Shown piece by piece: positions 3,254-48,099 of a stretch of 64,000 bases of DNA. Made by a program: the position numbers and the translations under genes. Under the pieces are notes generated by a model that was given only the letters and a program-made list of their open reading frames with translations, was not told the DNA's origin and searched no databases. The stretch is from NCBI GenBank assembly GCA_947258985.1, contig CAMYKI010000003.1, forward strand, positions 24,222-88,221, in the 5' to 3' direction. Source of the DNA: an uncultured Acidimicrobiaceae bacterium. GTDB taxonomy: Bacteria; Actinomycetota; Acidimicrobiia; Spongiisociales; UBA5794. Position 1 is the stretch's first letter, and each line of letters starts with the position of its first letter.

Positions 3254-3817
3254 ATGGCTGACCAGGCTCACTTCGAACGTGACGCAATGGAATATGCACC
3301 GCAGCTGTATTCCGCGGCGTTGCGGATGACGCGCAACCCCGCTGATGCTGAGGATGTTGTCCAGGAGACATACCTCAAGGCCTACCGGGCATATGCCACG
3401 TTCAAGGAAGGCACCAACCTCAAGGCGTGGCTGTACCGCATACTCACCAATACCTACATCAACCGCTACCGCAAGCAACAACGCCGGCCGTCCGAAGTGG
3501 AACTCGGCGAGTTGCAGGATCTCTATCTCTTCAAGAGATTGGGGGAGGCGTCAGGGGCCGAGCGCAGCACCGAGGAGTCGGTGCTGGAATCGATGGTTGA
3601 TGAAGACATCAAGGCTGCCCTGGAATCACTACCGGAGCGCTTCCGCATGCCGGTGTTGCTGGCAGATGTCGAAGGTTTTTCCTACAAGGAGATCGCTGAG
3701 ATAGTCGACGTTCCCATTGGCACCGTCATGTCCCGGCTGCATCGGGGAAGAAAAGCGCTCCAAAAGAAGTTGTGGTCTTTGGCTGAACAACGCGGACTCA
3801 CGGGACCCACTCAATGA
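3254..3817 (+). CDS. ECF RNA polymerase sigma factor (SigE/SigH/SigR-like)
   Basis: Sigma-70 region 2 ([14 protein letters not shown]...[15 protein letters not shown]) and region 4 ([44 protein letters not shown]). The stop overlaps the next start (ATGA). Confidence 0.8.
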
Positions 3818-4062
3818 ACGCAGGATGCGATCACGCAGTTGACTATCTGTACCAGTACATCGATGAAGAGTTGACCTGGGCGCGTCGAGTCAGGATTCGG
3901 TGGCATCTGCGAAGATGCGGAAAGTGCCTCGATGCATTCGATTTCGAGACCGAGCTCAAAACCCGGATCAGGGATTGCGGTGGGGATGAGCCACCTCAGG
4001 AACTTTTTGACCGACTCCGTGCGTTGATAGAGAAGGAGGCAGCGGAAGGTCAGGATATCTGA
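3814..4062 (+). CDS. anti-sigma factor, ZAS (zinc-binding anti-sigma) family, RsrA/RshA-like
   Basis: 82 aa with C-x23-HLRRCGKC, i.e. the H-x3-C-x2-C ZAS signature. Translationally coupled to the ECF sigma gene. Confidence 0.75.
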
Positions 4063-4709: not shown

Positions 4710-5741
4710 ATGACGACCGCCAACTGGGACTCCGCCGTCTCCATCGCTCGCCGCCTTGCGGGCAAATACCCGCTGGAAGGTACCTATCACGAAGCGCGTT
4801 TAGCGCGCCAGGTGCCGCTTCTCGTGGAGCGTGCCACGGCTCTCGTCTCCGCAGAAACCGGTCTCGAGGCGCCGGGCGAACCGGACGTTGCCGTGGTCGG
4901 CCGTGCCGAGTGGGTCGCCAACAACATCGCATCATTCTCCGAGTTGATGGCGCCGCTGGAGGATCGGCTCGGCGAGCAGAAAGCGATCGGGCGCGGAGTT
5001 GCCGGGAGGATCATGTCCGCCGAGCTCGGCGCAGTGCTGGGCTTCTTGTCGCGGCGGGTGCTCGGCCAGTACGAACTGGTCCTGCCGACAAGTGACGGAA
5101 GCGACGGCGATACCGTGATGTTCGTTGGGGCCAACATCCTGTCGATGGAGCGCCGTTTTGAATTCCGGCCCGCGGAGTTCCGGTTCTGGGTGGCGTTGCA
5201 TGAATCGACACACCGCATTCAGTTCCAGGGTGTGCCCTGGCTCCGCTCCTACTTTCTGGGCCTGGTCGAGGAACTCGTTCAGGCGACCCGTCCCGAACCC
5301 GGCAGGCTTTCCCGGCTTAGCGAAGAGATGCGGACTGCCTCGGCCGAGGGCCGTCCCATCCTCGATGAAAAGGGCCTATTCGGCCTGTTGGCAACCCCCG
5401 ATCAACGCGAGGTAATCGAGAAGGTGCAGGCTCTCATGTCTCTTCTCGAAGGGCACGGGCATGTGGTGATGGACCGCATCGGGGAGCGGGAGCTGGTCAG
5501 CCAGGCCCGCATGTCACGCATCCTGGCGTCGCGCCGCAACGACCCCCGTACCGCGATGTTCATGCGACTTGTCGGCCTCGAGATGAAGATGCGCCAATAC
5601 GAGCTCGGGGCCAAGTTCATCGAAGGCGTCGAAGAACGCGCCGGCTGGTCTGCGCTGGATGCAGCCTGGCTGCGACCATCCAACCTCCCAACTCTGGCCG
5701 AAATCGAGGATCCCGTCTCATGGCTGTATCGGGTGGGCTGA
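4710..5741 (+). CDS. zinc-dependent metalloprotease, DUF2342/zincin-like hydrolase
   Basis: HExxH motif (VALHESTHRIQF). Size and position upstream of tilS match the conserved actinobacterial DUF2342 protein. Confidence 0.65.
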   Translation: MTTANWDSAVSIARRLAGKYPLEGTYHEARLARQVPLLVERATALVSAETGLEAPGEPDVAVVGRAEWVANNIASFSELMAPLEDRLGEQKAIGRGVAGRIMSAELGAVLGFLSRRVLGQYELVLPTSDGSDGDTVMFVGANILSMERRFEFRPAEFRFWVALHESTHRIQFQGVPWLRSYFLGLVEELVQATRPEPGRLSRLSEEMRTASAEGRPILDEKGLFGLLATPDQREVIEKVQALMSLLEGHGHVVMDRIGERELVSQARMSRILASRRNDPRTAMFMRLVGLEMKMRQYELGAKFIEGVEERAGWSALDAAWLRPSNLPTLAEIEDPVSWLYRVG

Positions 5742-7033
5742 CGGCCCTGGCAGACTCGGTCCTCGACGGGATCGGTGCCATCGAGCACGGCCCTCTCATT
5801 GTTGCCCTCAGCGGCGGTGCAGATTCAGCGGTCGTAGCGTGGGCATGTTCCCAAACCCGCCCCTCCGGGTCTGTCCGTGCGGTCTACGTTGACCACGGCT
5901 GGGAAGCCTCGGGCCTGCTGGAGAATGCGGCTCGAGCTATCGCCGATCATCTCGGCCTCGAGCTCGAAGTGGTCAGGATCGACATTGCCACAGGGCCGTC
6001 ACGAGAAGGCATGGCCCGTGACGCTCGCCTCGAAGCTCTCGCAGATGCGGCAGGCGACGCCTGGGTGGTGACCGGCCATCACGCCGACGATGCTGCCGAG
6101 ACGGTGCTGGTCAACATTTTGCGTGGTGCCGGCGTCACCGGGCTCGCCGGTATTCCCGCCGCGCGCGAGCCGTTCCTGCGGCCGCTTCTGCCCTACCGCC
6201 GCACAGAGTTGCGCGCCCTGGCCGAACACCTCGAACTGCCGTTCATCGATGACCCGTCTAACCAGGACCTGACGCTGCTCCGCAATCGTATCCGCCACGA
6301 GTTGCTGCCCGAGCTGAGCAGGCGTTTCGATCGAGATGTCGGCCCGGTCATGGTGCGGACCGCATCGAACCTGGCCGCCGTTGACGCGCTACTGGAAGAA
6401 ATCACGCCTCTGGTGCGAATCGTTGCGGACGACGGGGCCATCCTGGTGGCGACCGCGCCGTTGACCACGGCACCCCGGGCGTTGGCCGGCCGCCTGGCTC
6501 GGATCGTCCTGCGGCGGGCCAATCCGCCATACGCCGGAACGAATCGTGAAGTCGAAGCAGTACTCGGCGTCGCCGCCGGCGAAATGCCGCGCGCAGATCT
6601 GAGCGCCGGCTTCATTGTTGAGCGGGAAGGCCCCTTTGTGGCGATCTATCAGACAGGCGAGCGTCCGGCGCCGGAGCCGGTCGCCCTCGAGATACCCGGC
6701 GCCTCCAGATTCGGGGCGCATCTGATTGCGGCCAAGCCGGCTTCGGGAGGGAACAAGGGTCACATGTCTCACGATCGGGTGCGGATTGCCGTCCCCGGGG
6801 ACCTTGTCGTTCGGTCGGCGCAACCGGGGGATCGGATCGCGCTAACGAGCGGCACAAAGAAGCTCTCCGACGCGATGCAAGAAGCCGGAATCCCGCTACG
6901 GAAGCGTCTCGCTTGGCCCGTCGTCACGAGCCGTGCGAGAATCGCCTGGGTGGCCGGTGTTCGGGTGGCCTCGTGGGCCAGGGATGACGGACCTGAGAAC
7001 ATGTGGGTTGAGCTCGAAAGGCGAACGGTGTGA
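5720..7033 (+). CDS. tilS: tRNA(Ile)-lysidine synthetase
   Basis: PP-loop SGGADS motif near the N-terminus. Conserved tilS-hpt-ftsH order. Confidence 0.8.
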   Translation: MAVSGGLTALADSVLDGIGAIEHGPLIVALSGGADSAVVAWACSQTRPSGSVRAVYVDHGWEASGLLENAARAIADHLGLELEVVRIDIATGPSREGMARDARLEALADAAGDAWVVTGHHADDAAETVLVNILRGAGVTGLAGIPAAREPFLRPLLPYRRTELRALAEHLELPFIDDPSNQDLTLLRNRIRHELLPELSRRFDRDVGPVMVRTASNLAAVDALLEEITPLVRIVADDGAILVATAPLTTAPRALAGRLARIVLRRANPPYAGTNREVEAVLGVAAGEMPRADLSAGFIVEREGPFVAIYQTGERPAPEPVALEIPGASRFGAHLIAAKPASGGNKGHMSHDRVRIAVPGDLVVRSAQPGDRIALTSGTKKLSDAMQEAGIPLRKRLAWPVVTSRARIAWVAGVRVASWARDDGPENMWVELERRTV

Positions 7034-7599
7034 AGGTAGCAAAAGTCCTCATCTCGGCGGAGGAGATAGACGCGAAGCTTGCGGAGATGGGAGCTGCCAT
7101 TACGCGAGATTACGAAGGCAAGGACCTTCTGATGATCGGCATCCTCAAAGGAGCGTTCGTGGTCCTCGCCGATCTCGCTCGCCATGTCCGGCTGCCGGTG
7201 GAGACGGACTTCATGGCGGTGTCGTCATATCACGGTGGTACTCACAGTTCCGGCGTGGTGCGCATCCTCAAGGACCTCGATCAGGAGATCGAGGGACGGA
7301 ACGTGCTCATCGTCGAAGACATCATCGACACCGGCCATACGCTCAAGTACCTGCTGCGCACGCTTGCGGTGCGCAAGCCCGCCACGTTGTCGCTTGCGTC
7401 GCTTCTCATCAAGGATGATGTCGACCGTCCCCATTTCGATATTCAATACGAGGGCTTCCATATTCCGAACGAGTTCGTGATCGGCTATGGGCTCGACTAC
7501 GACGAGAAATATCGGAACCTGCCGTATATCGGGGTGATGGACACGGACTCAACGACTTCGCCTACCGACGTGCAGGAAGGTTTCAAGCTGGCGGACTGA
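7030..7599 (+). CDS. hpt: hypoxanthine phosphoribosyltransferase
   Basis: PRPP-binding motif VLIVEDIIDTGHTL. Length 189 aa. Overlapping GTGA junction with tilS. Confidence 0.85.
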   Translation: MKVAKVLISAEEIDAKLAEMGAAITRDYEGKDLLMIGILKGAFVVLADLARHVRLPVETDFMAVSSYHGGTHSSGVVRILKDLDQEIEGRNVLIVEDIIDTGHTLKYLLRTLAVRKPATLSLASLLIKDDVDRPHFDIQYEGFHIPNEFVIGYGLDYDEKYRNLPYIGVMDTDSTTSPTDVQEGFKLAD

Positions 7600-7718: not shown

Positions 7719-9659
7719 GTGAACCGAACCGCCCGAACGATCCTCGTATACATGGTCGTTGCCATCCTCGTGATGATGGCGGTGAACGTGTTTCTCCAGG
7801 GTGCCAACGAGCCCGAGGAGCTCTCGCTCAGCGAATTCCAGACGAAACTCGTCGCAGGCGAAATCGCCAGTATCGAGATGAAGACGCGCTCCGATGAGAT
7901 CCTTGGGACCTTCACAGAAGATGCTGTCGTAGCCGGCGCCAACAATGAATTCCGCACTGTCTACCCGGCCGAGTTCGAGGACGAACTGACCATCCTCATC
8001 GACGAAACGGGTCTCGAGGAGTTCGTGGTCAATGCGGAGAACCCGTCGGCTCTCCAGTGGTTCTTTGGCACGATCTTCCCGTATCTCTTGATATTCGGTG
8101 TGTTCATCTTCTTCCTGTCACAAATGCAGGGTGGCGGCAACCGGGTGATGCAATTCGGCAAGGCCAAGGCCAAGCAGGTCAGCAAGGACGCTCCCAAGGT
8201 GACATTCAAAGATGTCGCCGGGGCCGACGAGGCGGTCGAGGAGTTGGAAGAGATCAAGGACTTCCTGGCGAGTCCCGGCAAGTTTCGGGCCATCGGCGCC
8301 AAGATCCCTCGTGGAGTGCTCCTCTACGGCCCTCCCGGGACCGGCAAGACCCTGTTGGCGCGCGCCGTTGCCGGGGAGGCAGGGGTTCCATTCTTCAGCA
8401 TTTCCGGCTCCGATTTCGTCGAGATGTTCGTCGGTGTCGGAGCGTCCCGGGTCCGAGATCTGTTCGAGCAGGCCAAGCAGAGCGGTCCGGCGATCGTGTT
8501 CATCGACGAGATCGACGCGGTGGGTCGCCATCGCGGAGCCGGTCTCGGCGGAGGACACGACGAGCGAGAGCAGACGCTCAATCAGCTACTCGTCGAATTG
8601 GACGGATTTGATGTCAACACCGGGGTCATTGTGATCGCGGCAACGAACCGGCCGGACATTCTCGATCCGGCGCTGCTCCGACCTGGTCGTTTTGACCGGC
8701 AGGTAGTTGTGGACCGACCAGACTTGAAGGGAAGAGAGGCCATCCTCGAGGTCCATTCGAAGGGCAAGCCGCTCGTCGACGAGATCGATCTCGGGGCTCT
8801 CGCCAGGCAGACACCCGGCTTCACGGGCGCCGACCTGGCCAATCTGATCAACGAAGCGGCTCTTCTGTCTGCACGTCGTGACAAGAAGCTCATCTCGATG
8901 GCCGAGCTCGAAGAAGCCATCGACCGGGTCATCGCAGGTCCGGAGCGGAAGAGTCGCGTCATGTCGGAGGAGGAGCGCAAGCTGACCGCTTATCACGAAG
9001 GCGGCCACGCTCTTGTCGGGTATGCGCTGCCCAACCTCGACCCGATCCATAAGGTGACGATCATCCCCCGCGGCCGGGCCGGTGGCTACACGCTGGCGTT
9101 GCCGGTCGAGGACAAGAGTTACGCCCGCCGGAGCGAGCTCGTTGACCAGCTGGCATATGCCCTGGGCGGACGGACGGCCGAAGAACAGGTCTTTGGTGAT
9201 CCCAGCACGGGAGCCTCAAACGACATAGAGAAGGCGACCGATCTCGCCCGCCAGATGGTCATGGAGTACGGCATGAGCGACCGTCTCGGGCCGCTGCGCT
9301 ACGGCAGGCCCGAATCCCAGGTGTTCCTCGGACGCGATTACACCCGCGGACAGGAGATGTCGGATGATGTTGCATCCGCAATCGACGACGAAATCCGTAT
9401 GTTGATCAACCAGGCTCACGAAGAGGCACGTTCGATTATCACGACCCACCGTGCCGCCCTCGATCGGATCGCCGACGTACTTCTCGACAAGGAGACGGTG
9501 GACGCCGCGGATGTTGCCGAGATCTTCTCCGACGTTCCCAAGTGGGAACACACCGAAGTGGGGGCGTTGCGTATTCGACTCCCCGAGCCTTCCATGGTCG
9601 GCGAAGGTCGGGTGGCGTCTTCGTCGCCTACCGACGACCCGCAACCGCCGCGAGCTTGA
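7719..9659 (+). CDS. ftsH: ATP-dependent zinc metalloprotease FtsH
   Basis: Two N-terminal TM segments, AAA Walker A (GPPGTGKT), SRH region, HEGGH zinc motif. AAGGAGA Shine-Dalgarno upstream of the GTG start. Confidence 0.9.
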
Positions 9660-9725
9660 TGCGGAGGCACAATCAACTGGACGGTACGCGATCGGGTTCT
9701 TTCCACCGCTGATCACACGTTGATC

Positions 9726-10529
9726 ATGGGGGTCGTCAACACCACGCCCGATTCGTTCTCCGACGGTGGTCGGTACACATCCACCAGAGCTGCTCTCGCC
9801 CACGGACTCGCCATGTTGGCGGATGGCGCCGACATCATCGACGTTGGCGGTGAATCGACCAGGCCGGGCGCCGACCCGGTGTCGGCGGAGGAGGAAATCG
9901 ACCGCATTGTCCCCGTCGTGGCGGGACTGGTCGACGTCGGTGCGGTGGTGAGCATTGACACAATGAAGCCGCAGGTCGCTGCGGCAGCCGTCGAAGCGGG
10001 CGCCCACATAGTCAACGACGTCTCTGCCTTGGGCGATCCCGACATGGCCATTGTCTGTGCCGAATCAGATGTTGGGGTGGTGCTCATGCACATGCAGGGG
10101 GAACCCGGGACCATGCAGGACGACCCGAGTTACGAAGACCTTCTCGCAGAGGTTGCCGGCTTCCTGAAACAGCGGGCGACGGCTGCACAAGCGGCCGGAA
10201 TTGGCCGTGATCGCATTTGCGTCGACCCGGGGATCGGTTTTGGCAAGACGTTCGACCACAACATGCAGATGCTGCACAACCTGGACTGGTTGACGGCTTT
10301 GGACTATCCCGTATTGGTTGGAACATCCCGGAAGGGCTTTCTCGGCGGCATACTCGCCGCCGCCGGCATGGAGTCTGCTCCTCACGAGCGAGACCCGGCG
10401 ACAGCGGCTACGGTTGCACTGGCAATCGCCGGGGGCGTGTCGGTTGTACGGGTACACAATGTGAGCCATGCCCTCCAAGCGGCGCGTACCGCCGACGCTA
10501 TCGTGCGGGCTTCGCAGACGGAGGTATAG
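9726..10529 (+). CDS. folP: dihydropteroate synthase
   Basis: MGVVNTTPDSFSDGG N-terminal motif and GADIIDVGGESTRPGA pterin-binding motifs. An internal ATG at 9726 gives the canonical start. The ORF track begins at a TTG at 9720. Confidence 0.9.
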   Translation: MGVVNTTPDSFSDGGRYTSTRAALAHGLAMLADGADIIDVGGESTRPGADPVSAEEEIDRIVPVVAGLVDVGAVVSIDTMKPQVAAAAVEAGAHIVNDVSALGDPDMAIVCAESDVGVVLMHMQGEPGTMQDDPSYEDLLAEVAGFLKQRATAAQAAGIGRDRICVDPGIGFGKTFDHNMQMLHNLDWLTALDYPVLVGTSRKGFLGGILAAAGMESAPHERDPATAATVALAIAGGVSVVRVHNVSHALQAARTADAIVRASQTEV

Positions 10530-10533
10530 ACAA

Positions 10534-11010
10534 GTGGCAGGTCTGGAGCCGAGAGGTTTCAAGTGGGTTATCGCGGGGCGATTGGCCATCTCCGAGAGGA
10601 TCGGGGGCTATGGATTCCAGCACCGCCGGGTGCGCCGCGAGGAGGAGATCATCTGGCTCACCGAACAGGGAGTCAACACGATCTTGTCGCTCATGCCGGG
10701 AAACCAGAATCAGGCCGCATACGAAGGCGCAACTCTCCGCTTCTTCCATTTCCCGATCGAGGATGATTTGGATCCCGAGGATGTCGACAAGATCTTTGGT
10801 GTCCTCGATGACGCTCTCGGCGAATCGGGATCGTCGGTCCTGGTACATCGGGAGTTGATCGGCGATCTGCTCGTCGGCCTCATGGGAGGCTACCTGGTCC
10901 ACTCCGGGCTAGTCAAAGACCCCATCGTTGCCACCTCGGTGATCCAGGAGATCTCCGGTCGGCCGCTCGGCCCCGAGGGGCGGCGGTTCATCCCGACTGT
11001 GACCGGCTGA
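10534..11010 (+). CDS. hypothetical protein occupying the usual folB position (weak phosphatase-like pattern, no catalytic Cys)
   Basis: ORF lies between folP and folK but has no similarity to dihydroneopterin aldolase by eye. The pattern W.TEQGV.TILSL...HFPI.D...VLVHRELIGD loosely resembles a dual-specificity-phosphatase fold without the CX5R cysteine. GTG start at 10534. Confidence 0.4.
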   Translation: MAGLEPRGFKWVIAGRLAISERIGGYGFQHRRVRREEEIIWLTEQGVNTILSLMPGNQNQAAYEGATLRFFHFPIEDDLDPEDVDKIFGVLDDALGESGSSVLVHRELIGDLLVGLMGGYLVHSGLVKDPIVATSVIQEISGRPLGPEGRRFIPTVTG

Positions 11011-11011
11011 A

Positions 11012-11578
11012 ATGGTCCGGGCCGCAATTGGCCTCGGCTCGAACCTCGGCGACCGTCCCCGCCACATTGGGGATGCGGTGGCGGCGCTTGCGGAGGCGGG
11101 TTCATTAGTTCGAGTCTCGTCGCTCTATCAGACGGCCCCGATGGGTGGCCCCAAACAGGGCACCTACCTCAATGCGGTGGTCGTTATCGACACCGACCTC
11201 TCTGCGCAGCAACTGCTCGAACGTTGCCTGGAAGTCGAGCAAGATCAGGGCCGGGAACGTCGGGAACGCTGGGGACCACGCACGCTCGATCTCGATGTTC
11301 TCCTCTACGGGGATGAAACCATCAACGACGTTGAGCTGAGTGTTCCGCACCCGCGGATGACGGAGCGCCGCTTCGTGCTGGAACCGCTACTCGAAGTCTG
11401 GCCGGACGCTGTTCTGCCGGACGGCACTCCCCTCGCCGGCTTCTCCGCCGGAGTCGCAGGCCAGAAGGTGCGAAAACTCGAAGCCGTTGTCCCCGATAGG
11501 AGGACGTCACTGGCTCTAATGCTGCTGGTAGTCGCCGGTGCCCTGGCTATCTGGTGGATAGGGGACTGGCTGCTCTAG
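11012..11578 (+). CDS. folK: 2-amino-4-hydroxy-6-hydroxymethyldihydropteridine diphosphokinase (HPPK)
   Basis: AAIGLGSNLGDR start motif and the conserved ERWGPRTLDLDVLLYG region. Carries an extra C-terminal hydrophobic tail of about 25 aa (LALMLLVVAGALAIWWIGDWLL). Confidence 0.85.
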   Translation: MVRAAIGLGSNLGDRPRHIGDAVAALAEAGSLVRVSSLYQTAPMGGPKQGTYLNAVVVIDTDLSAQQLLERCLEVEQDQGRERRERWGPRTLDLDVLLYGDETINDVELSVPHPRMTERRFVLEPLLEVWPDAVLPDGTPLAGFSAGVAGQKVRKLEAVVPDRRTSLALMLLVVAGALAIWWIGDWLL

Positions 11579-11623: not shown

Positions 11624-12862
11624 CTAGATGAGGGTGGTTGGCGGCCGGACCTCTTCACCGTCGATGGTGATGCTCAACTCGTGCCCGGCTCTCCGCAGCG
11701 AGGTTTCCACGGAATCGGGGTCGGGACCGCCGGCGAATACGAAGCCGAGGTAGCGGTCGCCTTCGGGGAGCGTCACAACCCGGCGTCCGGTGGCGACGGT
11801 GATGGTGACGTCATCGACGCCGGGGACCTCCCTGGCCGCTTCGATGCCGGCGACACCGGTGAGCGTTCCGGTCGCCGGAATCGGCAACATGAGTACACCC
11901 GATGACGGTCGCGCCGGTGAACTGTCGGGTGAGCGCAGTCCGAGCGCGCTACGGAGGATGAGCACCTCCAATGACTCGCCGAGGAGACCAAAAGTGAATG
12001 CCCGACCGCATAGACCACCGATGCTGCGGGCCGCGATCTCGATCAGGTGGCACTGCTTTTCGGCATCGATCCGGATCTCAGCGTGAATCGGCCCGGTTAT
12101 GAGACCAAGCTCCTCAACCGCCCGTTCGACGAGCCGGACCGCGGCATCCTGCATCGACGCCTCGTGACGGGAAGGCGTGACAAAGAGGGTCTCCTCGAAG
12201 TAGGGCCCTTCGAGCGGATCGGGCTTGTCGATGACCGCAAGCACTTCGAGACCGGTCGGTCCCAGCAATCCCTCGATGACGATCTCGTCGCCCGGGATGT
12301 ATCGCTCGACGAGCAAGGGGGCGGTGGCGGGCAAGTCGGCGCCTTCGAGAATCGCCCTGATGCGGTTCTCGGCTATCGATGCCTCGCCTGCGTTGTCAGC
12401 CCTGATGACTCCCCGGCTTGCAGACAGGCTCGTTGGCTTGACCACCACCGGGAAGCCGAGTTCTGCAGCGGCCGCGCTGACGGCGCCAGGGGGAGCTGTG
12501 CGAAAGTCCGGCTGCGAGATGCCTTCTGCTGCCAGGATCCTGCGGAGAGCTGCCTTGTCACGGGTGGCCGCTACTGCGCCGACCGGATTGTGCGGCAAAT
12601 CGAGCAGCGCGGCGGCTTCCGCCGCGGTGAGGACTGCCTGGTCGTCGACGCCGATCACGGCATCGATGTCGGGAAGGGCCGCCACGATCTCAGCGGCCGC
12701 CTTGTCGAGATCGTCTAGACAGACTTCCAGCCCGCGGTGCCCGGCCGGGAACTCACCGTCGCCCACCACTGAAGCGTCGATTCGAAGCAGCGCGGCGGCC
12801 TGGAGGAAGTCGGGAGTGCGGTAGCTCGATGGTCCCGCAACTATCGCTACCCGTCTGGTCAA
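11624..12862 (-). CDS. ATP-grasp domain protein (carboxylate-amine/L-amino-acid-ligase-like)
   Basis: Pre-ATP-grasp N-terminal region, then VVVKPTSLSASRGVIRADN and ERYIPGDEIVIEGLL motifs typical of ATP-grasp ligases. Confidence 0.6.
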   Translation of the reverse strand: MTRRVAIVAGPSSYRTPDFLQAAALLRIDASVVGDGEFPAGHRGLEVCLDDLDKAAAEIVAALPDIDAVIGVDDQAVLTAAEAAALLDLPHNPVGAVAATRDKAALRRILAAEGISQPDFRTAPPGAVSAAAAELGFPVVVKPTSLSASRGVIRADNAGEASIAENRIRAILEGADLPATAPLLVERYIPGDEIVIEGLLGPTGLEVLAVIDKPDPLEGPYFEETLFVTPSRHEASMQDAAVRLVERAVEELGLITGPIHAEIRIDAEKQCHLIEIAARSIGGLCGRAFTFGLLGESLEVLILRSALGLRSPDSSPARPSSGVLMLPIPATGTLTGVAGIEAAREVPGVDDVTITVATGRRVVTLPEGDRYLGFVFAGGPDPDSVETSLRRAGHELSITIDGEEVRPPTTLI

Positions 12863-12900
12863 CGTGCCATCCCTCGTGTCGAGTCACCTACGATACGCCG

Positions 12901-13536
12901 ATGTTCAACACCTTCGAGCCGCTGATCGCCATCGACGACAAGGCGAAGGCGACCATCCTCGATGTACTCAGACAGGAGCCGGATGGCGACGCTCTGGGGC
13001 TCGTCGTGAGCATCGCCGGGATCGACGGCACCGCCTTCAAGTACAGCCTGGCCATGGTTCGGCTCGAGGATGCCGCTCCCAGCGACCACCTCGTGCCCGC
13101 CGGTGATCTGACAATCGTTGTCCCGGATGCGGATCTGGAGAATCTGCGAGGGGCCACGATCAAGATGTCGGCGAACCTCCTGCAACCGGGACTTGTGCTC
13201 GACAACCCGAATACCCCCAGTCCGCGCATTCTGGGTGAGGGTGATCCGACGCAGCTGTCCGGCTCGATTGAGGAACGGGCAATCCAGGTCGTAGACACAA
13301 TGATCAACCCCGCAATAGCAGCCCACGGAGGTCGGGCCGAGATTGCCGGTGTCGAGGATGGGACTGCATACGTTCGTCTGGGCGGGGGGTGCCAGGGTTG
13401 CGGGATGGCGTCGGTGACGCTGTCTCAGGGCATAGAGGCAACCCTCATCGAGATGGTGCCCGAACTCAGCAAGGTCATCGATGTAACCGACCACTCTGGC
13501 GGCGACAACCCCTACTACGAGGCTGCGAAGAAGTAG
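12901..13536 (+). CDS. Fe-S cluster biogenesis protein, NfuA-like (degenerate A-type carrier N-domain plus Nfu C-domain)
   Basis: C-terminal Nfu motif GGGCQGCGMASVTL. The N-terminal about 95 aa look like an IscA/HesB fold lacking cysteines. ATG at 12901. Confidence 0.65.
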   Translation: MFNTFEPLIAIDDKAKATILDVLRQEPDGDALGLVVSIAGIDGTAFKYSLAMVRLEDAAPSDHLVPAGDLTIVVPDADLENLRGATIKMSANLLQPGLVLDNPNTPSPRILGEGDPTQLSGSIEERAIQVVDTMINPAIAAHGGRAEIAGVEDGTAYVRLGGGCQGCGMASVTLSQGIEATLIEMVPELSKVIDVTDHSGGDNPYYEAAKK

Positions 13537-13604
13537 TTTCGGCGGCGAGCCGTGTCGGGATTCCCGGTGAACCGTCGTAGTCGGTTCCCCTACACTCGCC
13601 AGCC

Positions 13605-16600
13605 ATGAGCGTGACCTGTTCTTCGTGCGGCACCCCTGGTCTGGATGGGGCCCGGTTCTGCGCGACCTGCGGTGAGTCGCTGTCTGTTCGGTGTCCGCAG
13701 TGTGCGGGGGAGGTCCCTGAAGGCTCACGTTTTTGTCCGACGTGCGGTAGCCAACTCGATGCCGACCGGGAGCAATCAGACGCCTCCCGTGAGGAGCGCA
13801 AGGTTGTCTCGGTGTTGTTTGCCGACCTGGTGGGTTTCACCGCTCACGCCGCTCAGGCCGACCCGGAAGATGTAAGGGTCCGGCTCACGGTGTATCACCG
13901 CAAGATCCGGGAGGATGTGGAGCGTTTCGGGGGCAGGGTCGAGAAGTTGATGGGCGATGGAGCGTTTGCCGTATTTGGTGCTCCGATCGCTCACGAGGAC
14001 GACCCGGAGCGCGCGGTTCGAGCTGCGCTGCGCGTCCAGCGTTCAGTGGAGGATCTCAACGAGGGTGATGCCGAGCTTGCTCTTTCGGTGCGGATCGCAG
14101 TCACCACCGGCGAGGCAATCGTGCAGTTGCAGGACGACGATCCCGATCGCGAAGGGATAGTCGGTGACGTCGTCAACACGGCCTCGCGGCTCGAGGCGGT
14201 TGCCCCTCCGGGGGGAGTCGTCGTCGACGAACGCACCTATCTCGCCACGCGGGATGCCGTCATCTACACCGACCTCGACCCGGTCCGGGTCAAAGGCAAG
14301 GAAGTTCCGCTGGCGATCTGGCAGCCGCAGGAGGCGCGTAGCCGGTACGGAGTTGCGGTGGAGAGACGTCACGTCGCGCCGTTTGTCGGAAGGGACGCGG
14401 AGTTGGGCGTGCTCGTGGACGCCTTCGAGCGCGTAGTGGCCGACAGCACCGTCCAGTTGGTGACGATCGTCGGCGAGCCCGGCGCAGGAAAGAGCCGTCT
14501 CCTTCACGAATTCTTCGATTCCGTCGACGCTCGGCCCGATCTCGTCTGGTGGCGACAGGGCAGATGCCCGGCCTACGGCGAAGGGATCGCCTTCTGGGCG
14601 TTGAGCGAGATTGTGAAATCGCACGCCGGCATTCTCGAGTCTGACACCGCCGACATCGCTGAGAGAAAGCTGCACACTGCACTTCGGTCCCTCCCGATCG
14701 ACCCTGCAAATGCCGACTGGGTAGAGTCTCGGCTCGCTCGGCTTGCCGGCGTCGGCACAAATGAGGGAGAGGTAGATCAGGCAGATCTGTTCTCTGCCTG
14801 GTTGCGGTTCTTCGAGGCCATGGCGGACCGGAATCCGCTCGTCTTGGTGGTCGAGGACCTGCATTGGGCCGACGGGGCCATGCTGGACTTCATTGAACAC
14901 CTCACGGATTGGGCGGTTTCTTCACCGATACTGGTTGTCACGACGACGCGCCCTGAGTTGTTGGCCGGGCGTGACTCCTGGGGCGGGGGACGAAGGAATT
15001 CCAATACGATCGGACTCGCTCCACTCGACGACGCCGCCGCAGCCGGGTTGCTTTCAGCGCTTCTCGACAGCACCGTGCTCGACGCCGAGGTGCTGGACGC
15101 CATTTTGGGCCGAGCCGGCGGTAACCCGCTGTACGTCACCGAGTTTGTCCGGCTCGCCGGGGACATGGACGCTGTAGCCGACGCCTCCAGGATTGCCGCG
15201 ATGCCTTTGCCCGGTTCGGTACAAGCCCTCGTCGCCGGGAGGCTCGATCAGCTCGAAGCCGACGAGAAGGCGGTTCTGCAGGCAGCATCCGTGGTCGGAA
15301 GGGTGTTTTGGGCGGGGGCGTTGAAGTCGCTGCGACCCACGTTGACGACGGACGACGTGTTGCGCGGACTGATCCGCCGTGAGCTGATCCGGCCGGTACG
15401 GGACACGTCAATGCAGGGCCAGCAGGAATACGTGTTCACCCACAGCGTCATCCGCGATGTTGCGTACGGCCAGATTCCACGTGACGAGCGGGCACATCTA
15501 CATGAATCGGTAGCGGGATGGATCGAGGCGGTCAGCGGTACCCAGGGTTCAGATGCCGGCGAATTGCTCGCCTATCACCTTGGTGAAGCGCTGTCGTTGT
15601 CGAGTTCCCCTGCCGAGGACGTGCGGCTGCGCGCCTACCGGGCCCACATGCAGGCCGGGGACCGCGCTCGTGGGCTGAATCCGACGCTCGGTGCCGATTA
15701 CTACCGTAGGGCGGTCGAATACGCCGCTGCCGGACCGGACCGAGCGCATGCGCTGCTCGAATATGGTGACACGATTCGCCTTACCGAGCCGGATCGGGTC
15801 CGGGCGCTGCTCGATGAGGCGCTCACCCTCTTCCGGGAGGCTGGTGACGCCGAGGGCGAAGCACTGACGTTCAGCTTCCTCGCGGGCCTGTTGTGGTGGC
15901 GGGGGGACACTGCGGAGGCGTATGCCCACAGCAAGAGAGCCGTGGAAATCGTCGAAGATCTCCCGGCTTCCACCGCCAAAGCGCGGGTTCTGGTGACCCG
16001 GGCCAGCGGCCTATACCTCCGCGGTGATGCCGCGGCGGCGCTGGAGGTCTCTGCGATCGCCGCCGACGTTGTCGCCGAGGCCGGCTCGGCGGCGGATCAA
16101 GTCCAATTCCTGTACACCCGCGGTGGCGCGCTTGTGGAGCTGGGTGACGAGACGGGCCTCGATGACCTACAGGCCGCGGCGGATATGGCGTTGGATCGGA
16201 ATATGACCCAGCCGGCCGTCACCGCGCTCAACAATCTCGCCACGGTCGCGGCGACTGCCAGGAGCACCGACGAGGCGCTGGCAGCCATCGACAAGGGTAT
16301 CGCCCTCTGCGAGGAACGAGGCGCGGTAGCGGGCACCATTTGGGCGAGTTTCACCAAGTGCGAGATCCTCGTCCCGGCCGGTAGATGGGATGAGGTACTC
16401 GAACTCGCCGACTACGTAGCCGAGCGCGACGCCGCATTGGGCGGCAGCCAGGCCGCAACAGGCGCAGCCTCACTCAAGGCGATCGTGCTGTTCTACCGGG
16501 GCCAACGGGCGGAAGCCCGCCGTCTCCACGCCACCGTGCTCAAATCAGCTCGCGAGATCGGGGATCAACAGGTGCTGTCCCCGGTGCTGGCATTCGAGGC

Positions 16601-17084
16601 GCTCATGGCCGCCGACAGCGGTGAATGCTCCGCGGCAATCGACCTCTGCGAGCAATACCACACAAGCACGGTCGACAACCCGGGCATGCGGTCGTACAAC
16701 CTGGCAGCGGCAACTGAAGCTCTCTGGGCATGTGACGAAAAGAATTTGCTGCTGAGGCTCGCGCAGTCGACCCGCGCCGTCGGTGCGCTCGGCGAGGTTC
16801 AAGTGGCTCGTGCTCGGGGGCATGCGGCCGCGGTAAATGGCGACTGTCGGGCCGCCGCCGACCACTTCGAACAGGCGATCGAGCGGGCCGAAGAAGCCGG
16901 TCGGTACCTCGACGGTACGCTGGCCCGTCTGGAGCGGGCGCGAGCTCTTGATGCCGCGGCCACCAGGTCTGAGATACCCCGCCTCATCGGTGAGGCTCGC
17001 GAGAGAGCCGAGCGGATGGGGGCAGCAAAGCTACTTGACCGGCTCGACGGCTTTAAAGCTACCGGCACGAGTTCCGGAGGATGA
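13605..17084 (+). CDS. multidomain signalling protein: double zinc-ribbon, class III adenylate cyclase domain, AAA/STAND NTPase and TPR-like C-terminus
   Basis: N-terminal CxxC...CxxC twice. Cyclase homology domain with metal-binding Asp (FADLVGFT, KLMGDG), adenine-specifying Lys (VEKLMGDG) and Asp (GIVGDVVNTASRLE), and transition-state Asn/Arg. Walker A GEPGAGKS. Long helical repeat-like C-terminal half. Confidence 0.8.
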   Translation: MSVTCSSCGTPGLDGARFCATCGESLSVRCPQCAGEVPEGSRFCPTCGSQLDADREQSDASREERKVVSVLFADLVGFTAHAAQADPEDVRVRLTVYHRKIREDVERFGGRVEKLMGDGAFAVFGAPIAHEDDPERAVRAALRVQRSVEDLNEGDAELALSVRIAVTTGEAIVQLQDDDPDREGIVGDVVNTASRLEAVAPPGGVVVDERTYLATRDAVIYTDLDPVRVKGKEVPLAIWQPQEARSRYGVAVERRHVAPFVGRDAELGVLVDAFERVVADSTVQLVTIVGEPGAGKSRLLHEFFDSVDARPDLVWWRQGRCPAYGEGIAFWALSEIVKSHAGILESDTADIAERKLHTALRSLPIDPANADWVESRLARLAGVGTNEGEVDQADLFSAWLRFFEAMADRNPLVLVVEDLHWADGAMLDFIEHLTDWAVSSPILVVTTTRPELLAGRDSWGGGRRNSNTIGLAPLDDAAAAGLLSALLDSTVLDAEVLDAILGRAGGNPLYVTEFVRLAGDMDAVADASRIAAMPLPGSVQALVAGRLDQLEADEKAVLQAASVVGRVFWAGALKSLRPTLTTDDVLRGLIRRELIRPVRDTSMQGQQEYVFTHSVIRDVAYGQIPRDERAHLHESVAGWIEAVSGTQGSDAGELLAYHLGEALSLSSSPAEDVRLRAYRAHMQAGDRARGLNPTLGADYYRRAVEYAAAGPDRAHALLEYGDTIRLTEPDRVRALLDEALTLFREAGDAEGEALTFSFLAGLLWWRGDTAEAYAHSKRAVEIVEDLPASTAKARVLVTRASGLYLRGDAAAALEVSAIAADVVAEAGSAADQVQFLYTRGGALVELGDETGLDDLQAAADMALDRNMTQPAVTALNNLATVAATARSTDEALAAIDKGIALCEERGAVAGTIWASFTKCEILVPAGRWDEVLELADYVAERDAALGGSQAATGAASLKAIVLFYRGQRAEARRLHATVLKSAREIGDQQVLSPVLAFEALMAADSGECSAAIDLCEQYHTSTVDNPGMRSYNLAAATEALWACDEKNLLLRLAQSTRAVGALGEVQVARARGHAAAVNGDCRAAADHFEQAIERAEEAGRYLDGTLARLERARALDAAATRSEIPRLIGEARERAERMGAAKLLDRLDGFKATGTSSGG

Positions 17085-17156
17085 CGTCACCAATCTCATC
17101 GCCACGAGCCGCTATCAGAAGCTAGGGTCGAGGCTGAATCCGGAGGAGGAGCACCC

Positions 17157-17576
17157 ATGGACAAGGTCGAATTTCTGAGCAAGACACCGCTCTTTGAGAG
17201 TTGCTCAGCAAAGAGCGTCAAGTCCATTGCCGAGCAGACCAGGGTCAGGAAGTTCAGCGCCGGAGACGAGATCATTGTCGAGGGCAGTCAGAAGACCATG
17301 GGTTTCTACATGATTCTGGACGGTGAAGCGAGGGTGAGTCGGGCGGACCATCACCTCGGTGACTATGGGCCCGGCGACTACTTCGGCGAAATAGCTCTTC
17401 TGCTAGATGACACACCGAGAACCGCAACGGTCACGGCCGTCACGGATCTGAGCGTGCTCGTGTTGACCCGGTGGGATTTCAAGGCACTGATCAAGACCAA
17501 CCCGGAAATCGCGGTCGAGGTGATGGGTGTGCTTGCGCAGCGTCTCGCCGCCACAGATCGAGTTCTCGGCGAATAG
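17157..17576 (+). CDS. stand-alone cyclic-nucleotide-binding (CAP-effector) domain protein, no DNA-binding domain
   Basis: 139 aa. Phosphate-binding cassette FGEIALLLDDTPRTATVTA. GGAGGAG Shine-Dalgarno precedes the ATG. Starts 73 bp after the cyclase gene and ends at the terminator below. Confidence 0.75.
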   Translation: MDKVEFLSKTPLFESCSAKSVKSIAEQTRVRKFSAGDEIIVEGSQKTMGFYMILDGEARVSRADHHLGDYGPGDYFGEIALLLDDTPRTATVTAVTDLSVLVLTRWDFKALIKTNPEIAVEVMGVLAQRLAATDRVLGE

Positions 17577-17599
17577 CCTTTTCGCCTGTCAGACAAGAG

Positions 17600-17625
17600 A
17601 AAACCCCGCCCGGAGGCGGGGTTTT
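17600..17625. terminator. bidirectional rho-independent terminator
   Basis: AAAACCCCGCC-cggag-GGCGGGGTTTT: a 7-bp GC stem flanked by an A-run and a T-run, lying between convergent genes. Confidence 0.6.
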
Positions 17626-17648
17626 CAGTTGGTTGATTCAGGCCGTTA

Positions 17649-17942
17649 CTAGACGGCTACGCGGTCCTTCAGGCCCTTGGCGGGCTTGAACTTCGCATGC
17701 TTCTTCGCTGCGATCTGAATCGTTTCGCCGGTGGCAGGATTGCGACCCTGACGAGCCTTGCTCCGGCTCGTGTAGAACTTGCCAAAACCGCTGATGGCGA
17801 CATCACGGTCGGCGTCGAGCTCGACGGCAATGATGCCGTCGCCCGAATCAGAGCTGAAAATGATGTCGATGACCTCTGCAGCCTTTGCCTGGCTCAGGTC
17901 TGCCTTCTTGGCGAGCTTCTTCGCCATCTCTGTCTTGTTCAT
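17649..17942 (-). CDS. hup: DNA-binding protein HU
   Basis: MNKTEMAKKLAKKADLSQAKAAEVIDIIF...GFGKF...RNPATGETI is a canonical HU/IHF fold sequence. ATG at 17942. Confidence 0.85.
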   Translation of the reverse strand: MNKTEMAKKLAKKADLSQAKAAEVIDIIFSSDSGDGIIAVELDADRDVAISGFGKFYTSRSKARQGRNPATGETIQIAAKKHAKFKPAKGLKDRVAV

Positions 17943-18072
17943 AGTGAACTCCCTATCTTGACGAACCTCGGGATGTGTTTCCCCGCTTTGCAAGCGACCA
18001 AGCTACACCCAAAACCCGCATAAACAGTGGATTTTTTGCGAGAGCGGTGCCGCGGAGCGGATGACCGATCGG

Positions 18073-20028
<1,956 letters not shown>

Positions 20029-20040
<12 letters not shown>

Positions 20041-37474: not shown

Positions 37475-38206
37475 GTGACGAACAAGAAGACCACAGCGAA
37501 GACCGCCACGAAGAAGGCACCGGCCAAAAAGGCACCGGCCAAGAAGGCTGCGGCCAAAAAGGCTCCGGCCAAGAAGGCTGCGGCCAAAAAGACTGCGGCG
37601 GCGAAGAAGGCTCCGGCCAAGAAGGCTCCGGCCAAAAAGACTGCGGCGGCGAAGAAGGCTCCGGCAGCCAAGGCTGCACCCCGCCGAGCCAAAAAGGTGC
37701 AGAGCCCGTTTTCGGTTGGCGACTACGTCGTCTATCCGCATCACGGAGCCGCAACAATTATCAAGCGCGAGCGGATCGACTTCGACGGCGAGCGGCAAGA
37801 GTATTTCGTACTCGAGATTGCCACCGATCAGCTCACTGTGCGGGTCCCGGTCGGCAAGGCCGTTGATCTCGGCGTACGTCCGGTGATTTCGCAAAACAAG
37901 GCCCGGCAGGTGTTCCGAACGTTCAAAGAAGAGCCTCAGGAAGCCGGCAAGAACTGGAGCCGCTGGTACAAGCTCCTCACCGAGAAGATCAACAGTGGCG
38001 ACATCTTCCAGGTAGCCGAAGTGGTTCGCGACCTCACCTATGCGCAGCAGGTGAAGGGGATCTCACCGGCGCTGAAGAGGATGTTGGCCAAGGCTCGGCT
38101 AATCATCATCTCAGAACTCCGTTTCGCGCTTAACCTGGACGAAGAGGAAGCGGTGAAGAGACTCGATAGGGCTCTTCCCAAAGTCGAAATGCCGGAGGAA
38201 GTGTGA
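37475..38206 (+). CDS. carD: CarD/CdnL family RNA-polymerase-binding regulator with N-terminal Lys/Ala-rich histone-H1-like extension
   Basis: The C-terminal roughly 160 aa are a CarD_CdnL_TRCF domain ([27 protein letters not shown]...). The N-terminal about 80 aa are [10 protein letters not shown] repeats. GTG start. Confidence 0.8.
37500..37690. repeat. tandem 15/45-bp repeats encoding the (P/A)AKKA motif inside carD
   Basis: Repeated gccaagaaggctccggccaaaaag(g/a)ctgcggc units are visible in the DNA. Likely to vary in length. Confidence 0.6.
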
Positions 38207-47956: not shown

Positions 47957-48099
47957 GGCGGTCTCCGGGTGATTGCGTCGGTGGGGAAGTATCAACAACG
48001 TATCAACTGGGTGTGACACATTTGCCTCGGGCGGACACGGCGGGTCATGAGCTTCGCAACTCGGCGGCCGTGTCTTCCCGCTAGATTTGCTGATGAGCA

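What the first reader, a model, noticed from the sequence alone, without database searches (positions are those of the whole stretch)
9659..11010. Folate operon lacks folE and folB in their syntenic positions; an unrelated ORF occupies the folB slot
In the ftsH-folE-folP-folB-folK arrangement typical of actinobacteria, folE is absent between ftsH and folP. In place of folB there is a 158-aa ORF with no resemblance to dihydroneopterin aldolase; it has a weak phosphatase-like pattern without a catalytic Cys. folB and folE may be encoded elsewhere, or this ORF may be a non-orthologous replacement or a regulatory pseudo-phosphatase acting on pterin phosphates. The 7,8-dihydroneopterin triphosphate dephosphorylation step is still poorly assigned in many bacteria.
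Basis: partly seen in the sequence, partly recalled or inferred. Interest (0 to 1): 0.5.

Follow-up and report, generated by a model that had tools for sequence, protein, structure and literature searches.

The report
Cysteine-less phosphatase-like gene in folate operon
The small gene between folP and folK does not replace the missing folate enzyme FolB: it is an uncharacterised, strongly conserved, catalytically disabled phosphatase look-alike that sits inside the folate operon across the bacterial class Acidimicrobiia, usually next to a normal FolB.

Summary
The window reads tilS-hpt-ftsH-folP-X-folK. There are only 60 nt between ftsH and folP, a 158-aa ORF X (10534-11010) lies between folP and folK, and no folE, folB, FolE2, PTPS or transaldolase-type substitute occurs anywhere in the 64 kb.

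The proposed FolB replacement is not supported. In 47 of 84 related Acidimicrobiia loci, X lies between folP and a normal folB. Most of these loci read folE-folP-X-folB-folK, often with 4-nt overlaps.

The window's lineage has secondarily lost folE and folB from the operon. I could not test whether they lie elsewhere in the genome.

My best guess is a phospho-ligand-binding accessory protein of the pterin branch. A folate-independent housekeeping role is nearly as likely, because Ilumatobacteraceae keep X beside tilS with no fol genes nearby.

The parts
7719..9659 (+). ftsH, the upstream anchor of the conserved actinobacterial tilS-hpt-ftsH-fol supercluster
   Evidence: TIGR01241 859 bits. Pfam FtsH_ext, AAA, AAA_lid_3 and Peptidase_M41.
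9660..9719 (.). 60-nt ftsH-folP spacer, at the position where relatives carry folE (about 190-225 codons)
   Evidence: Sequence. folE sits at this position in 42 of 81 relatives found through X and in L084-L086.
9720..10529 (+). folP (dihydropteroate synthase). The likely start is the ATG at 9726, which gives 267 aa.
   Evidence: PF00809 E 1.7e-84. TIGR01496 318 bits, cutoff 162.6. Called as 267 aa on identical Logan contigs.
10520..10524 (+). GGAGG ribosome-binding site for X, inside the 3' end of folP and 9 nt upstream of the GTG start
   Evidence: Read directly from the sequence.
10534..11010 (+). X: a 158-aa Cys-less dual-specificity-phosphatase-fold protein (pseudophosphatase) from an Acidimicrobiia-specific family
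   Evidence: - The start matches the N-terminus of the homologues (MAGLEPRGF).
- AlphaFold2 model: pLDDT 89, pTM 0.85.
- Foldseek E 1.3e-8 to 2img (DUSP23).
- hhalign 95.6% to DUSP23.
- hmmsearch E 1.3e-13 to PDB 25xa.
- dN 0.08 to the nearest relatives.
10594..10647 (+). Codons 21-38 of X (ERIGGYGFQHRRVRREEE): the family's most conserved motif. It includes a 6-10-residue insertion relative to canonical DSPs.
   Evidence: E21, R22, G24, G25, H30, R31, R34, R35, E37 and E38 are invariant in 81 sequences. The insertion is seen in the alignments to DUSP23 and to 25xa.
10840..10878 (+). Codons 103-115 of X (LVHRELIGDLLVG): a degenerate P-loop. H105 is kept, Arg106 replaces the catalytic Cys and Leu112 replaces the catalytic Arg.
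   Evidence: Alignments. Positions 106 and 112 vary across the family.
11012..11578 (+). folK (HPPK) with a C-terminal hydrophobic tail. Its ATG lies 1 nt after the X stop codon.
   Evidence: PF01288 E 1.5e-41. TIGR01498 144.5 bits, cutoff 54.1. Sequence.

Best explanation
SHOWN.
- X (10534-11010) is a real, strongly constrained gene. It belongs to a family that in this survey came only from Acidimicrobiia-type loci.
- It is a homologue of small DUSP23/VHZ-type dual-specificity phosphatases.
- It has lost the catalytic Cys (Arg106 here, variable in the family), the P-loop Arg and the general-acid Asp.
- It has gained an invariant Arg/His-rich insertion (H30, R31, R34, R35) between strand 2 and helix 1.
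- In most relatives it lies between folP and folB. It is co-directional with both, and in some loci all junctions overlap by 4 nt.
- It therefore does not replace FolB. The folP-X-folK arrangement in the window is what remains after folE and folB were removed from an ancestral ftsH-folE-folP-X-folB-folK operon.

INFERRED (mechanism).
- The invariant polar residues (R7, E21, R22, H30, R31, R34, R35, E37, E38, N59, Y63, H105, near-invariant D111, R150) fall mostly in the loops that frame the active-site face of DSPs. This placement comes from the sequence alignment to DUSP23, not from measured distances.
- I therefore think X uses a remodelled anion pocket to bind a phosphorylated ligand without Cys-based hydrolysis.
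- I think it acts as an accessory or regulatory partner of the pterin branch (FolP, FolB, FolK, or their phosphorylated pterin intermediates).
- folE and folB of this lineage are most likely encoded elsewhere or functionally substituted, because folP and folK remain under purifying selection.
For: Identity and fold:
- hhalign 95.6%, E 1e-8 to DUSP23, with H105=H94, R106=C95 and L112=R101.
- E 1.3e-13 to the bona fide DSP 25xa, which has HCRAGYGRTG.

Family size and distribution:
- 1156 hits, 3960 hits and 378 clusters at 50% identity.
- At least 574 loci in GTDB species representatives. The best 80 are all Acidimicrobiia-type loci.

Genomic context:
- In 70 of the 81 loci found through X, folP lies just upstream. 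In 44 of them folB lies just downstream.
- Three operons sampled from the FolE side all contain X. In L086 all four junctions overlap by 4 nt.
- In the window the gaps are 4 nt and 1 nt, and no terminator lies between the genes.

Selective constraint:
- dN is 0.08 for X, against 0.24 for FolP and 0.17 for FolK.
- For folP and folK, dN/dS is about 0.08-0.22. dS is saturated, so these ratios are rough.

The same 27 residues are invariant in all three genomic contexts.

L025 and L026 keep folB but lack folE in the operon. folE can therefore leave the operon while its product is still needed.
Against: - No biochemical or binding evidence exists, and I could not measure residue clustering on the model.
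- X is retained beside tilS in 10 of 81 loci, and after ftsH in one more (mostly Ilumatobacteraceae), with no fol gene within the locus (up to 10 kb on each side).
- The genome paper for the cultured Ilumatobacter coccineum reports the folate pathway as 'missing or incomplete' (PMC3910706). This suggests X has a role that does not require folate synthesis.
- The tilS-hpt-ftsH-fol cluster mixes functionally unrelated housekeeping genes, so position alone is weak evidence of pathway membership.
- Whether window-type genomes have folE or folB elsewhere was not testable. A search for their FolE by contig-length matching was uninformative.
Confidence: 0.45

Rival explanations
1. X is a class-specific housekeeping pseudophosphatase whose job has nothing to do with folate. 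It might bind a phosphoprotein, a nucleotide or an RNA 5' end, or act with TilS, Hpt or FtsH. It merely sits in the conserved tilS-hpt-ftsH-fol supercluster.
For: - 11 of 81 loci keep X (after tilS in 10, after ftsH in 1) with no fol gene in the locus. The genes downstream of X there are unrelated: scramblase/DUF2510, epimerase, M23 peptidase.
- X in those lineages is highly conserved and abundant (3960 hits, top 120 at 75-96% identity) and keeps all the invariant residues.
- The folate pathway of I. coccineum is reported as missing or incomplete (PMC3910706).
- X is retained in the window clade despite the loss of folE and folB.
- Its conservation is closer to FtsH/Hpt than to FolP/FolK.
- Structural neighbours include RNA 5'-phosphatases and the capping-enzyme triphosphatase (TMq 0.70-0.72).
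Against: - X is inserted inside the fol block, between folP and folB, not beside tilS, hpt or ftsH, in 70 of the 81 loci found through X and in all three FolE-sampled loci.
- The 4-nt overlaps with folP and folB point to coupled translation with fol enzymes.
- It is not shown that the Ilumatobacteraceae MAGs carrying X lack folK and folP elsewhere.
Confidence: 0.33
2. X is a Cys-independent phosphohydrolase that removes phosphate(s) from 7,8-dihydroneopterin triphosphate or monophosphate. That would make it a non-Nudix analogue of FolQ/NudB and fill the poorly assigned dephosphorylation step.
For: - The operon slot lies between folE/folP and folB, which is where a DHNTP-to-DHN enzyme would make sense.
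- The DHNTP pyrophosphatase gene was unidentified in most bacteria as of 2007, and unrelated phosphohydrolases (FolQ, HD-type FolQ2) are known to sit in fol clusters (PMC1971073).
- X has an invariant Arg/His cluster plus invariant Glu and near-invariant Asp residues.
- The fold is shared with triphosphate-processing DSP enzymes.
Against: - All known enzymes of this fold need the HCX5R cysteine and arginine. Both positions are variable in X, and no other Cys is conserved.
- X is retained where folE and folB are absent from the operon (the window clade) and where no fol genes are nearby.
Confidence: 0.13
3. One reading: X is a non-orthologous replacement of dihydroneopterin aldolase (FolB) in this genome.
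For: X occupies the position immediately upstream of folK, where folB lies in other actinobacteria. No folB is found in the window.
Against: - X coexists with a canonical FolB in 44 of the 81 loci found through X and in all 3 of the FolE-sampled loci.
- The conserved residues are the same with and without folB.
- X has a DSP fold, not a T-fold.
- folE is missing as well, which X cannot explain.
Confidence: 0.02
4. X is a chance ORF in GC-rich DNA, or a very divergent FolB.
For: The GC-rich sequence produces many spurious long ORFs in this region.
Against: - More than 1000 homologues, with 80% mean column identity among 27 sampled members.
- dN/dS of about 0.05-0.2.
- A confident fold prediction.
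- No FolB profile hit at E<=1.
Confidence: 0.01

Closest known systems
DUSP23/VHZ-type small dual-specificity phosphatases (PDB 2img, 4erc) and the bacterial 'dual specificity protein phosphatase family protein' PDB 25xa
   Same: - Detectable sequence homology (hhalign 95.6%; hmmsearch E 1.3e-13).
- Shared N-terminal (P)xxFxWV...LA motif, the PGG motif, the His before the P-loop, and the C-terminal RP motif.
   Different: - The catalytic Cys, the P-loop Arg and the general-acid Asp are all absent or unconserved.
- A 6-10-residue invariant insertion (..HRRVRR..) is not present in the active enzymes.
- The gene is embedded in a folate operon.
[not shown]
   Same: A DSP fold that has lost the nucleophilic cysteine, so it is expected to bind rather than hydrolyse (the STYX properties come from general knowledge).
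   Different: - STYX keeps the P-loop arginine and binds phosphoproteins in eukaryotic signalling.
- X has lost the arginine too, has a new basic insertion, is bacterial and lies in a metabolic operon.
- No ligand is known for X.
FolQ/NudB (Nudix) and FolQ2 (HD-type) DHNTP pyrophosphatase genes found in fol clusters
   Same: A small accessory gene with a phosphatase-like fold inside a folate biosynthesis cluster (PMC1971073).
   Different: - The fold is unrelated.
- X has no Nudix box or HD motif and no Nudix/HD Pfam hit.
- X lacks the nucleophile of its own superfamily.
- No activity has been shown.
FolB (dihydroneopterin aldolase) and its known substitutes PTPS-III and the transaldolase-like FolB2
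   Same: Only the position immediately upstream of folK in this window.
   Different: - No sequence or fold similarity.
- X coexists with FolB in relatives.

Membership tests
Dihydroneopterin aldolase FolB (PF02152) | Match to the FolB/DHNA profile | tested here: not met
   No PF02152 hit for X even at E<=1, and no NCBIfam hit. True FolB genes in relatives are readily detected by tblastn (E 1e-12 to 1e-33).
Dihydroneopterin aldolase FolB (PF02152) | T-fold (tunnelling-fold) architecture | tested here: not met
   [not shown]
Dihydroneopterin aldolase FolB (PF02152) | Mutually exclusive distribution with FolB, as expected of a replacement | tested here: not met
   X and FolB are adjacent in 44 of the 81 loci found through X, and in L084-L086.
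Cys-based dual-specificity / protein-tyrosine phosphatase superfamily (active enzymes) | DSP fold and detectable homology | tested here: met
   [not shown]
Cys-based dual-specificity / protein-tyrosine phosphatase superfamily (active enzymes) | HCX5R(S/T) signature: nucleophilic Cys and phosphate-binding Arg | tested here: not met
   The window has H105-R106-E-L-I-G-D-L112. The Cys position is R, Q, G or another residue, and the Arg position is L, T or R, both variable across 81 sequences.
Cys-based dual-specificity / protein-tyrosine phosphatase superfamily (active enzymes) | General-acid Asp in the loop before helix 2 | tested here: not met
   D77 aligns with DUSP23 D65, but this column is not conserved in the family: the commonest residue there is Pro in loci that have both folE and folB, and Gly in the other two groups.
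Pseudophosphatases (DSP fold without catalytic residues) | Phosphatase fold combined with loss of essential catalytic residues, under purifying selection | tested here: met
   dN 0.08 against dS>1.
Pseudophosphatases (DSP fold without catalytic residues) | No hydrolytic activity; binds a phospho-ligand or a partner protein | not testable with these tools
   This needs enzyme assays and binding assays.
FolQ/NudB DHNTP pyrophosphatase (Nudix) | Nudix fold and Nudix box | tested here: not met
   No NUDIX Pfam hit, and the fold is DSP.
Folate (pterin-branch) operon member | Co-directional with fol genes, tightly spaced or overlapping, with conserved order across the clade | tested here: met
   - The window has gaps of 4 nt and 1 nt.
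- folP lies upstream in 70 of the 81 loci found through X.
- 4-nt overlaps are seen in L084 and L086.
Folate (pterin-branch) operon member | Presence depends on the folate genes (phylogenetic co-occurrence) | tested here: inconclusive
   11 of the 81 loci found through X have X without fol genes in the locus. Whole-genome content could not be examined. The I. coccineum folate pathway is reported as missing or incomplete.

The most novel reading that the evidence does not exclude
X is the founding member of a Cys-independent, Arg-rich branch of the DSP fold that acts on phosphorylated pterins. Two versions are possible. X could be the missing dihydroneopterin-triphosphate/monophosphate phosphohydrolase of Acidimicrobiia. 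Alternatively, X could be an obligatory pterin-phosphate-binding subunit that lets a folP-X-folK module run without FolE and FolB, for example by re-using hydroxymethyl-dihydropterin from folate breakdown or from the environment.
Probability: 0.15. Interest if true: 0.75.

Novelty: new variant of a known kind. Interest (0 to 1): 0.45.

Why it matters
- The dephosphorylation of dihydroneopterin triphosphate is still unassigned in most bacteria. Accessory genes inside fol operons have led to such missing enzymes before (FolQ, FolE2, PTPS-III).
- This work documents an unnamed gene that is abundant in the environment (thousands of sequences in soil, freshwater and marine Acidimicrobiia) and is in several loci translationally coupled to folP and folB. 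It is a clean candidate for experimental follow-up.
- It would also be a bacterial metabolic-operon example of a pseudophosphatase, a class known mostly from eukaryotic signalling.
- Removing the mistaken 'FolB replacement' reading prevents a wrong annotation.
- A separate question becomes testable: how a whole clade keeps folP and folK under selection when folE and folB have left the operon.

Tried and rejected
1. The locus search with the very diverse alignment A2 failed, because it had no conserved stretch to search with. It was repeated with the 9-sequence alignment A3.
2. I tried to locate FolE in window-type genomes by matching 'longest_contig' lengths (109564, 4156462, 2840933, 3254181, 3740380 and others) among FolE homologues. 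None of the top 120 matched, so this was uninformative, not negative.
3. The 109.5-kb NCBI contig that holds the window could not be retrieved. Only 2.7-4.7-kb Logan contigs were returned.
4. Apparent fusions of X with FolP, FolB or FolK (P0211, P0239, P0242, P0244, P0260) turned out to be frameshifted read-through translations of GC-rich operons. They are not real fusions, and they only confirm the gene order.
5. The sequence hits to designed 'Pizza' propeller proteins are repeat artefacts: six 4-bit stretches of 25 residues each.
6. The AlphaFold-database fold library was unavailable.
7. The promoter and terminator scan gave no more hits than shuffled sequence.
8. Occasional Lys/Ala-rich or acidic C-terminal tails on some X homologues (P0139, P0141, L048) are sporadic and are not a family feature.
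9. I looked for a sequence shift in X that coincides with the loss of folE and folB. The invariant core is identical in all contexts, and L086 combines a window-like X with folE and folB.
Full report
**1. What is in the sequence**

Gene order on the + strand is Zincin_2 (4710-5741), tilS (5720-7033), hpt (7030-7599), ftsH (7719-9659), folP (9720/9726-10529), ORF X (10534-11010) and folK (11012-11578).
- folP and folK are full-strength matches to the NCBIfam equivalog models: TIGR01496 at 318 bits (cutoff 163) and TIGR01498 at 144 bits (cutoff 54).
- Only 60-66 nt separate the ftsH stop from the folP start, so there is no room for folE.
- X starts with GTG 4 nt after the folP stop. A GGAGG lies 9 nt upstream of that GTG. 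The folK ATG lies 1 nt after the X stop.
- No terminator-like or promoter-like site separates these genes beyond what shuffled sequence gives.
- X gives no FolB hit at E<=1. Its only hits are sub-threshold phosphatase-domain hits (PTP-SAK, E 0.005). It has no NCBIfam hit.
- tblastn with FolB, FolE, QueD, FolA and NudB queries finds nothing in the 64 kb.
- Pfam annotation of nearly every ORF in the window finds no GTP cyclohydrolase I or IB, PTPS, transaldolase, FolC or DHFR.

The rest of the window is the familiar actinobacterial neighbourhood: tmk, holB, panC, coaX, lysS, clpC, radA, disA, carD, ispD and cysS.

**2. X is a real, strongly constrained gene**

- The homology search returns 1156 proteins. 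The top 120 are 69-100% identical and nearly all 157 aa long, starting MAGLEPRGF. This fixes the GTG at 10534 as the start.
- Every source that names any of them calls it a hypothetical protein.
- A profile search of the 50%-identity library finds 378 clusters.
- A second search seeded with a distant subfamily finds 3960 proteins.
- Against the two closest relatives, dN is 0.08 for X, 0.24 for FolP, 0.17 for FolK and 0.05 for FtsH. dS is saturated at >1.

X therefore evolves 2-3 times more slowly than the two enzymes that flank it.

**3. What X is**

- The AlphaFold2 model is confident: pLDDT 89.2, pTM 0.85.
- Homology is also visible in sequence. hhalign of the family profile against human DUSP23 gives 95.6% probability, E 1e-8. 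hmmsearch of the profile against PDB sequences gives E 1.3e-13 to 25xa, a bona fide DSP with HCRAGYGRTG.
- In these alignments H105 matches the His of the HCX5R motif. The catalytic Cys is replaced by R106, the catalytic Arg by L112, and the general-acid Asp corresponds to D77.
- Across 81 family members these three positions are variable.

What is invariant instead, across all 81 sequences, is G3, P6, R7, F9, W11, L17, A18, E21, R22, G24, G25, H30, R31, R34, R35, E37, E38, W41, N59, Y63, H105, G115, G119, Y120, A133, P147 and R150. D111 is near-invariant. The block E21-E38 contains a 6-10-residue insertion relative to 25xa and DUSP23.

By the sequence alignment to DUSP23, most of these residues fall in the loops that frame the DSP active-site face: the strand 2-helix 1 loop, the strand 3-strand 4 connection and the P-loop. 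I could not measure distances on the model, so this clustering is inferred.

X is therefore a pseudophosphatase by sequence criteria, with a remodelled basic pocket.

**4. Context in relatives: the decisive evidence**

A scan of GTDB species representatives found at least 574 loci encoding X. The best 80 are all Acidimicrobiia-type loci. A few titles name other phyla, but those loci carry the same tilS-hpt-ftsH or fol neighbourhood.

I mapped FolE, FolP, FolB, FolK, FtsH, Hpt and TilS on these loci plus one more, 81 in all. Apart from two loci cut by a contig end, they divide as follows:
- 42 have folE and folB, most reading (tilS-hpt-ftsH)-folE-folP-X-folB-folK.
- 2 (L025, L026) read ftsH-folP-X-folB-folK, with no folE.
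- 24 read folP-X-folK without folE or folB. This is the window's arrangement. It includes all loci whose X is at least 59% identical to the window's.
- 11 (mostly Ilumatobacteraceae) have X directly after tilS (10 loci) or after ftsH (1 locus), with no fol gene in the locus (up to 10 kb on each side). The genes downstream of X there are unrelated.

Three operons sampled independently from the FolE side all read folE-folP-X-folB-folK. In L086 every junction is a 4-nt overlap. L086 also carries a window-like X (56% identical, with the window-like ERIGG...HRRVRREEE form of the motif) next to folE and folB.

From general knowledge, other actinobacteria such as M. tuberculosis (Rv3610c-Rv3606c) have ftsH-folE-folP-folB-folK without X. 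The simplest history is that X was inserted between folP and folB in an early Acidimicrobiia ancestor, and that folE and folB were later removed from the operon in the window's lineage.

**5.

X is not a replacement for FolB.
- It normally sits next to a canonical FolB.
- Its conserved residues do not change when FolB is absent.
- It has the wrong fold.
- It cannot explain the simultaneous absence of folE.

The description of X as a pseudo-phosphatase is upheld.

**6. How X most likely works**

- Shown: the fold, the loss of the canonical catalytic residues, the invariant basic insertion, operon membership and strong constraint.
- Inferred: X binds an anionic, probably phosphorylated, ligand or partner through the remodelled pocket, without Cys chemistry.
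- Because X lies inside the fol block in 73 of 84 loci, and in some is translationally coupled to folP and folB, my best guess is an accessory or regulatory role in the pterin branch. That would mean binding a phosphorylated pterin intermediate, or binding FolP, FolB or FolK (about 0.4-0.45).

The main rival (about 0.33) is a folate-independent housekeeping role.
- X persists with an intact invariant core next to tilS where no fol genes are nearby.
- It persists in the window clade despite the loss of folE and folB.
- The genome paper for the cultured Ilumatobacter coccineum reports the folate pathway as missing or incomplete (PMC3910706). I could not show that this strain carries X.

A Cys-independent DHNTP/DHNMP phosphohydrolase would be the most exciting reading (about 0.13). 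It fits the long-standing gap described in PMC1971073. However, it has no precedent in this fold, and the same distribution data weaken it.

**7. The missing folE and folB**

- folP and folK in the window clade are intact and under purifying selection, so hydroxymethyl-dihydropterin must come from somewhere.
- L025 and L026 show that folE can leave the operon while folB, which depends on its product, stays. Absence from the operon is therefore not absence from the genome.
The contig-length fingerprint attempt was uninformative. This remains the key open computation.

**8. Novelty and score**

- The DSP superfamily and the pseudophosphatase concept are known.
- A class-wide bacterial pseudophosphatase with a new invariant insertion, embedded in the folate operon, has no Pfam or NCBIfam model. 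Three full-text searches aimed at such a protein found no description of it.
- I rate it a new variant of a known kind, with interest 0.45. It is a solid lead for folate-pathway and pseudoenzyme specialists. The specific claim that motivated the finding is refuted, and the function remains inferential.

Noticed in passing
window 11012-11578 (folK), residues ~160-188; L086 7235-8188: The window's FolK ends in a hydrophobic, transmembrane-like tail (RRTSLALMLLVVAGALAIWWIGDWLL). In relative L086, FolK is a 317-aa fusion to a PEMT/ICMT-like membrane methyltransferase domain (PF04191, E 8.5e-8). This suggests membrane-anchored HPPK in this class.
   Followed up: partly
window 11624-20040: An 8.4-kb block separates folK from panC. 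In relatives (L001, L084-L086) folK is followed almost directly by a DUF2520 gene and panC. The block holds an ATP-grasp L-amino-acid-ligase-like gene (- strand), an NfuA-like Fe-S protein, a 1159-aa zinc-ribbon/adenylate-cyclase/AAA_16/TPR protein, a cNMP-binding protein, HU, a beta-eliminating lyase and an AsnC regulator.
   Followed up: partly
L044, L057, L059, L061, L064, L067, L068, L074, L075, L078, L079: In mostly Ilumatobacteraceae-type genomes the tilS-hpt-ftsH-fol supercluster is broken up. X stays directly downstream of tilS, or of ftsH in L061. hpt and all fol genes are gone from the locus, and so is ftsH except in L061. The genes downstream of X are a scramblase/DUF2510 gene, an epimerase and an M23 peptidase.
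   Followed up: partly
L025, L026: An intermediate operon state, ftsH-folP-X-folB-folK: folB is kept and folE is absent from the operon.
   Followed up: no
P0244, P0260, P0211, P0239, P0242 (protein database entries): Long 'fusion proteins' combining FolP, X, FolB or HPPK fragments are out-of-frame read-through translations of GC-rich operons. They are gene-calling or assembly artefacts, not true multidomain proteins. Several long-read MAG loci (L029, L040, L047, L071, L073, L080) also show split tblastn hits typical of frameshift errors.
   Followed up: partly
L016, L022, L048 (record titles): Contigs labelled Acidobacteria, Kiloniellales and Burkholderiales carry the typical Acidimicrobiia gene order: tilS-hpt-ftsH-folP-X-folK in L016 and L022, and tilS-hpt-folP-X with a distant folK and no ftsH in L048. 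Binning contamination is the likely cause.
   Followed up: no
L048 10001-11317; P0139, P0141, P0135: A few X homologues carry long low-complexity C-terminal tails that are Lys/Ala/Glu-rich or histone-H1-like (PF07382, sub-threshold). Most X proteins have no tail.
   Followed up: partly
window 52620-53480: A single 286-aa ORF combines ECF sigma regions 2 and 4 with a zf-HC2 anti-sigma zinc finger. It is either a sigma/anti-sigma fusion or two genes merged by my ORF call. A separate sigma plus zf-HC2 pair lies at 3254-4062.
   Followed up: no
window 46808-48100 (- strand): A DUF222/HNH endonuclease gene. In my experience this type is often mobile in actinobacterial genomes. It lies next to a HAD hydrolase and a Cys/Met PLP enzyme.
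   Followed up: no
window 37475-38206: CarD carries an N-terminal Lys/Ala-rich extension resembling histone H1/HC2 (PF07382, E 1.9e-7, below the cutoff).
   Followed up: no
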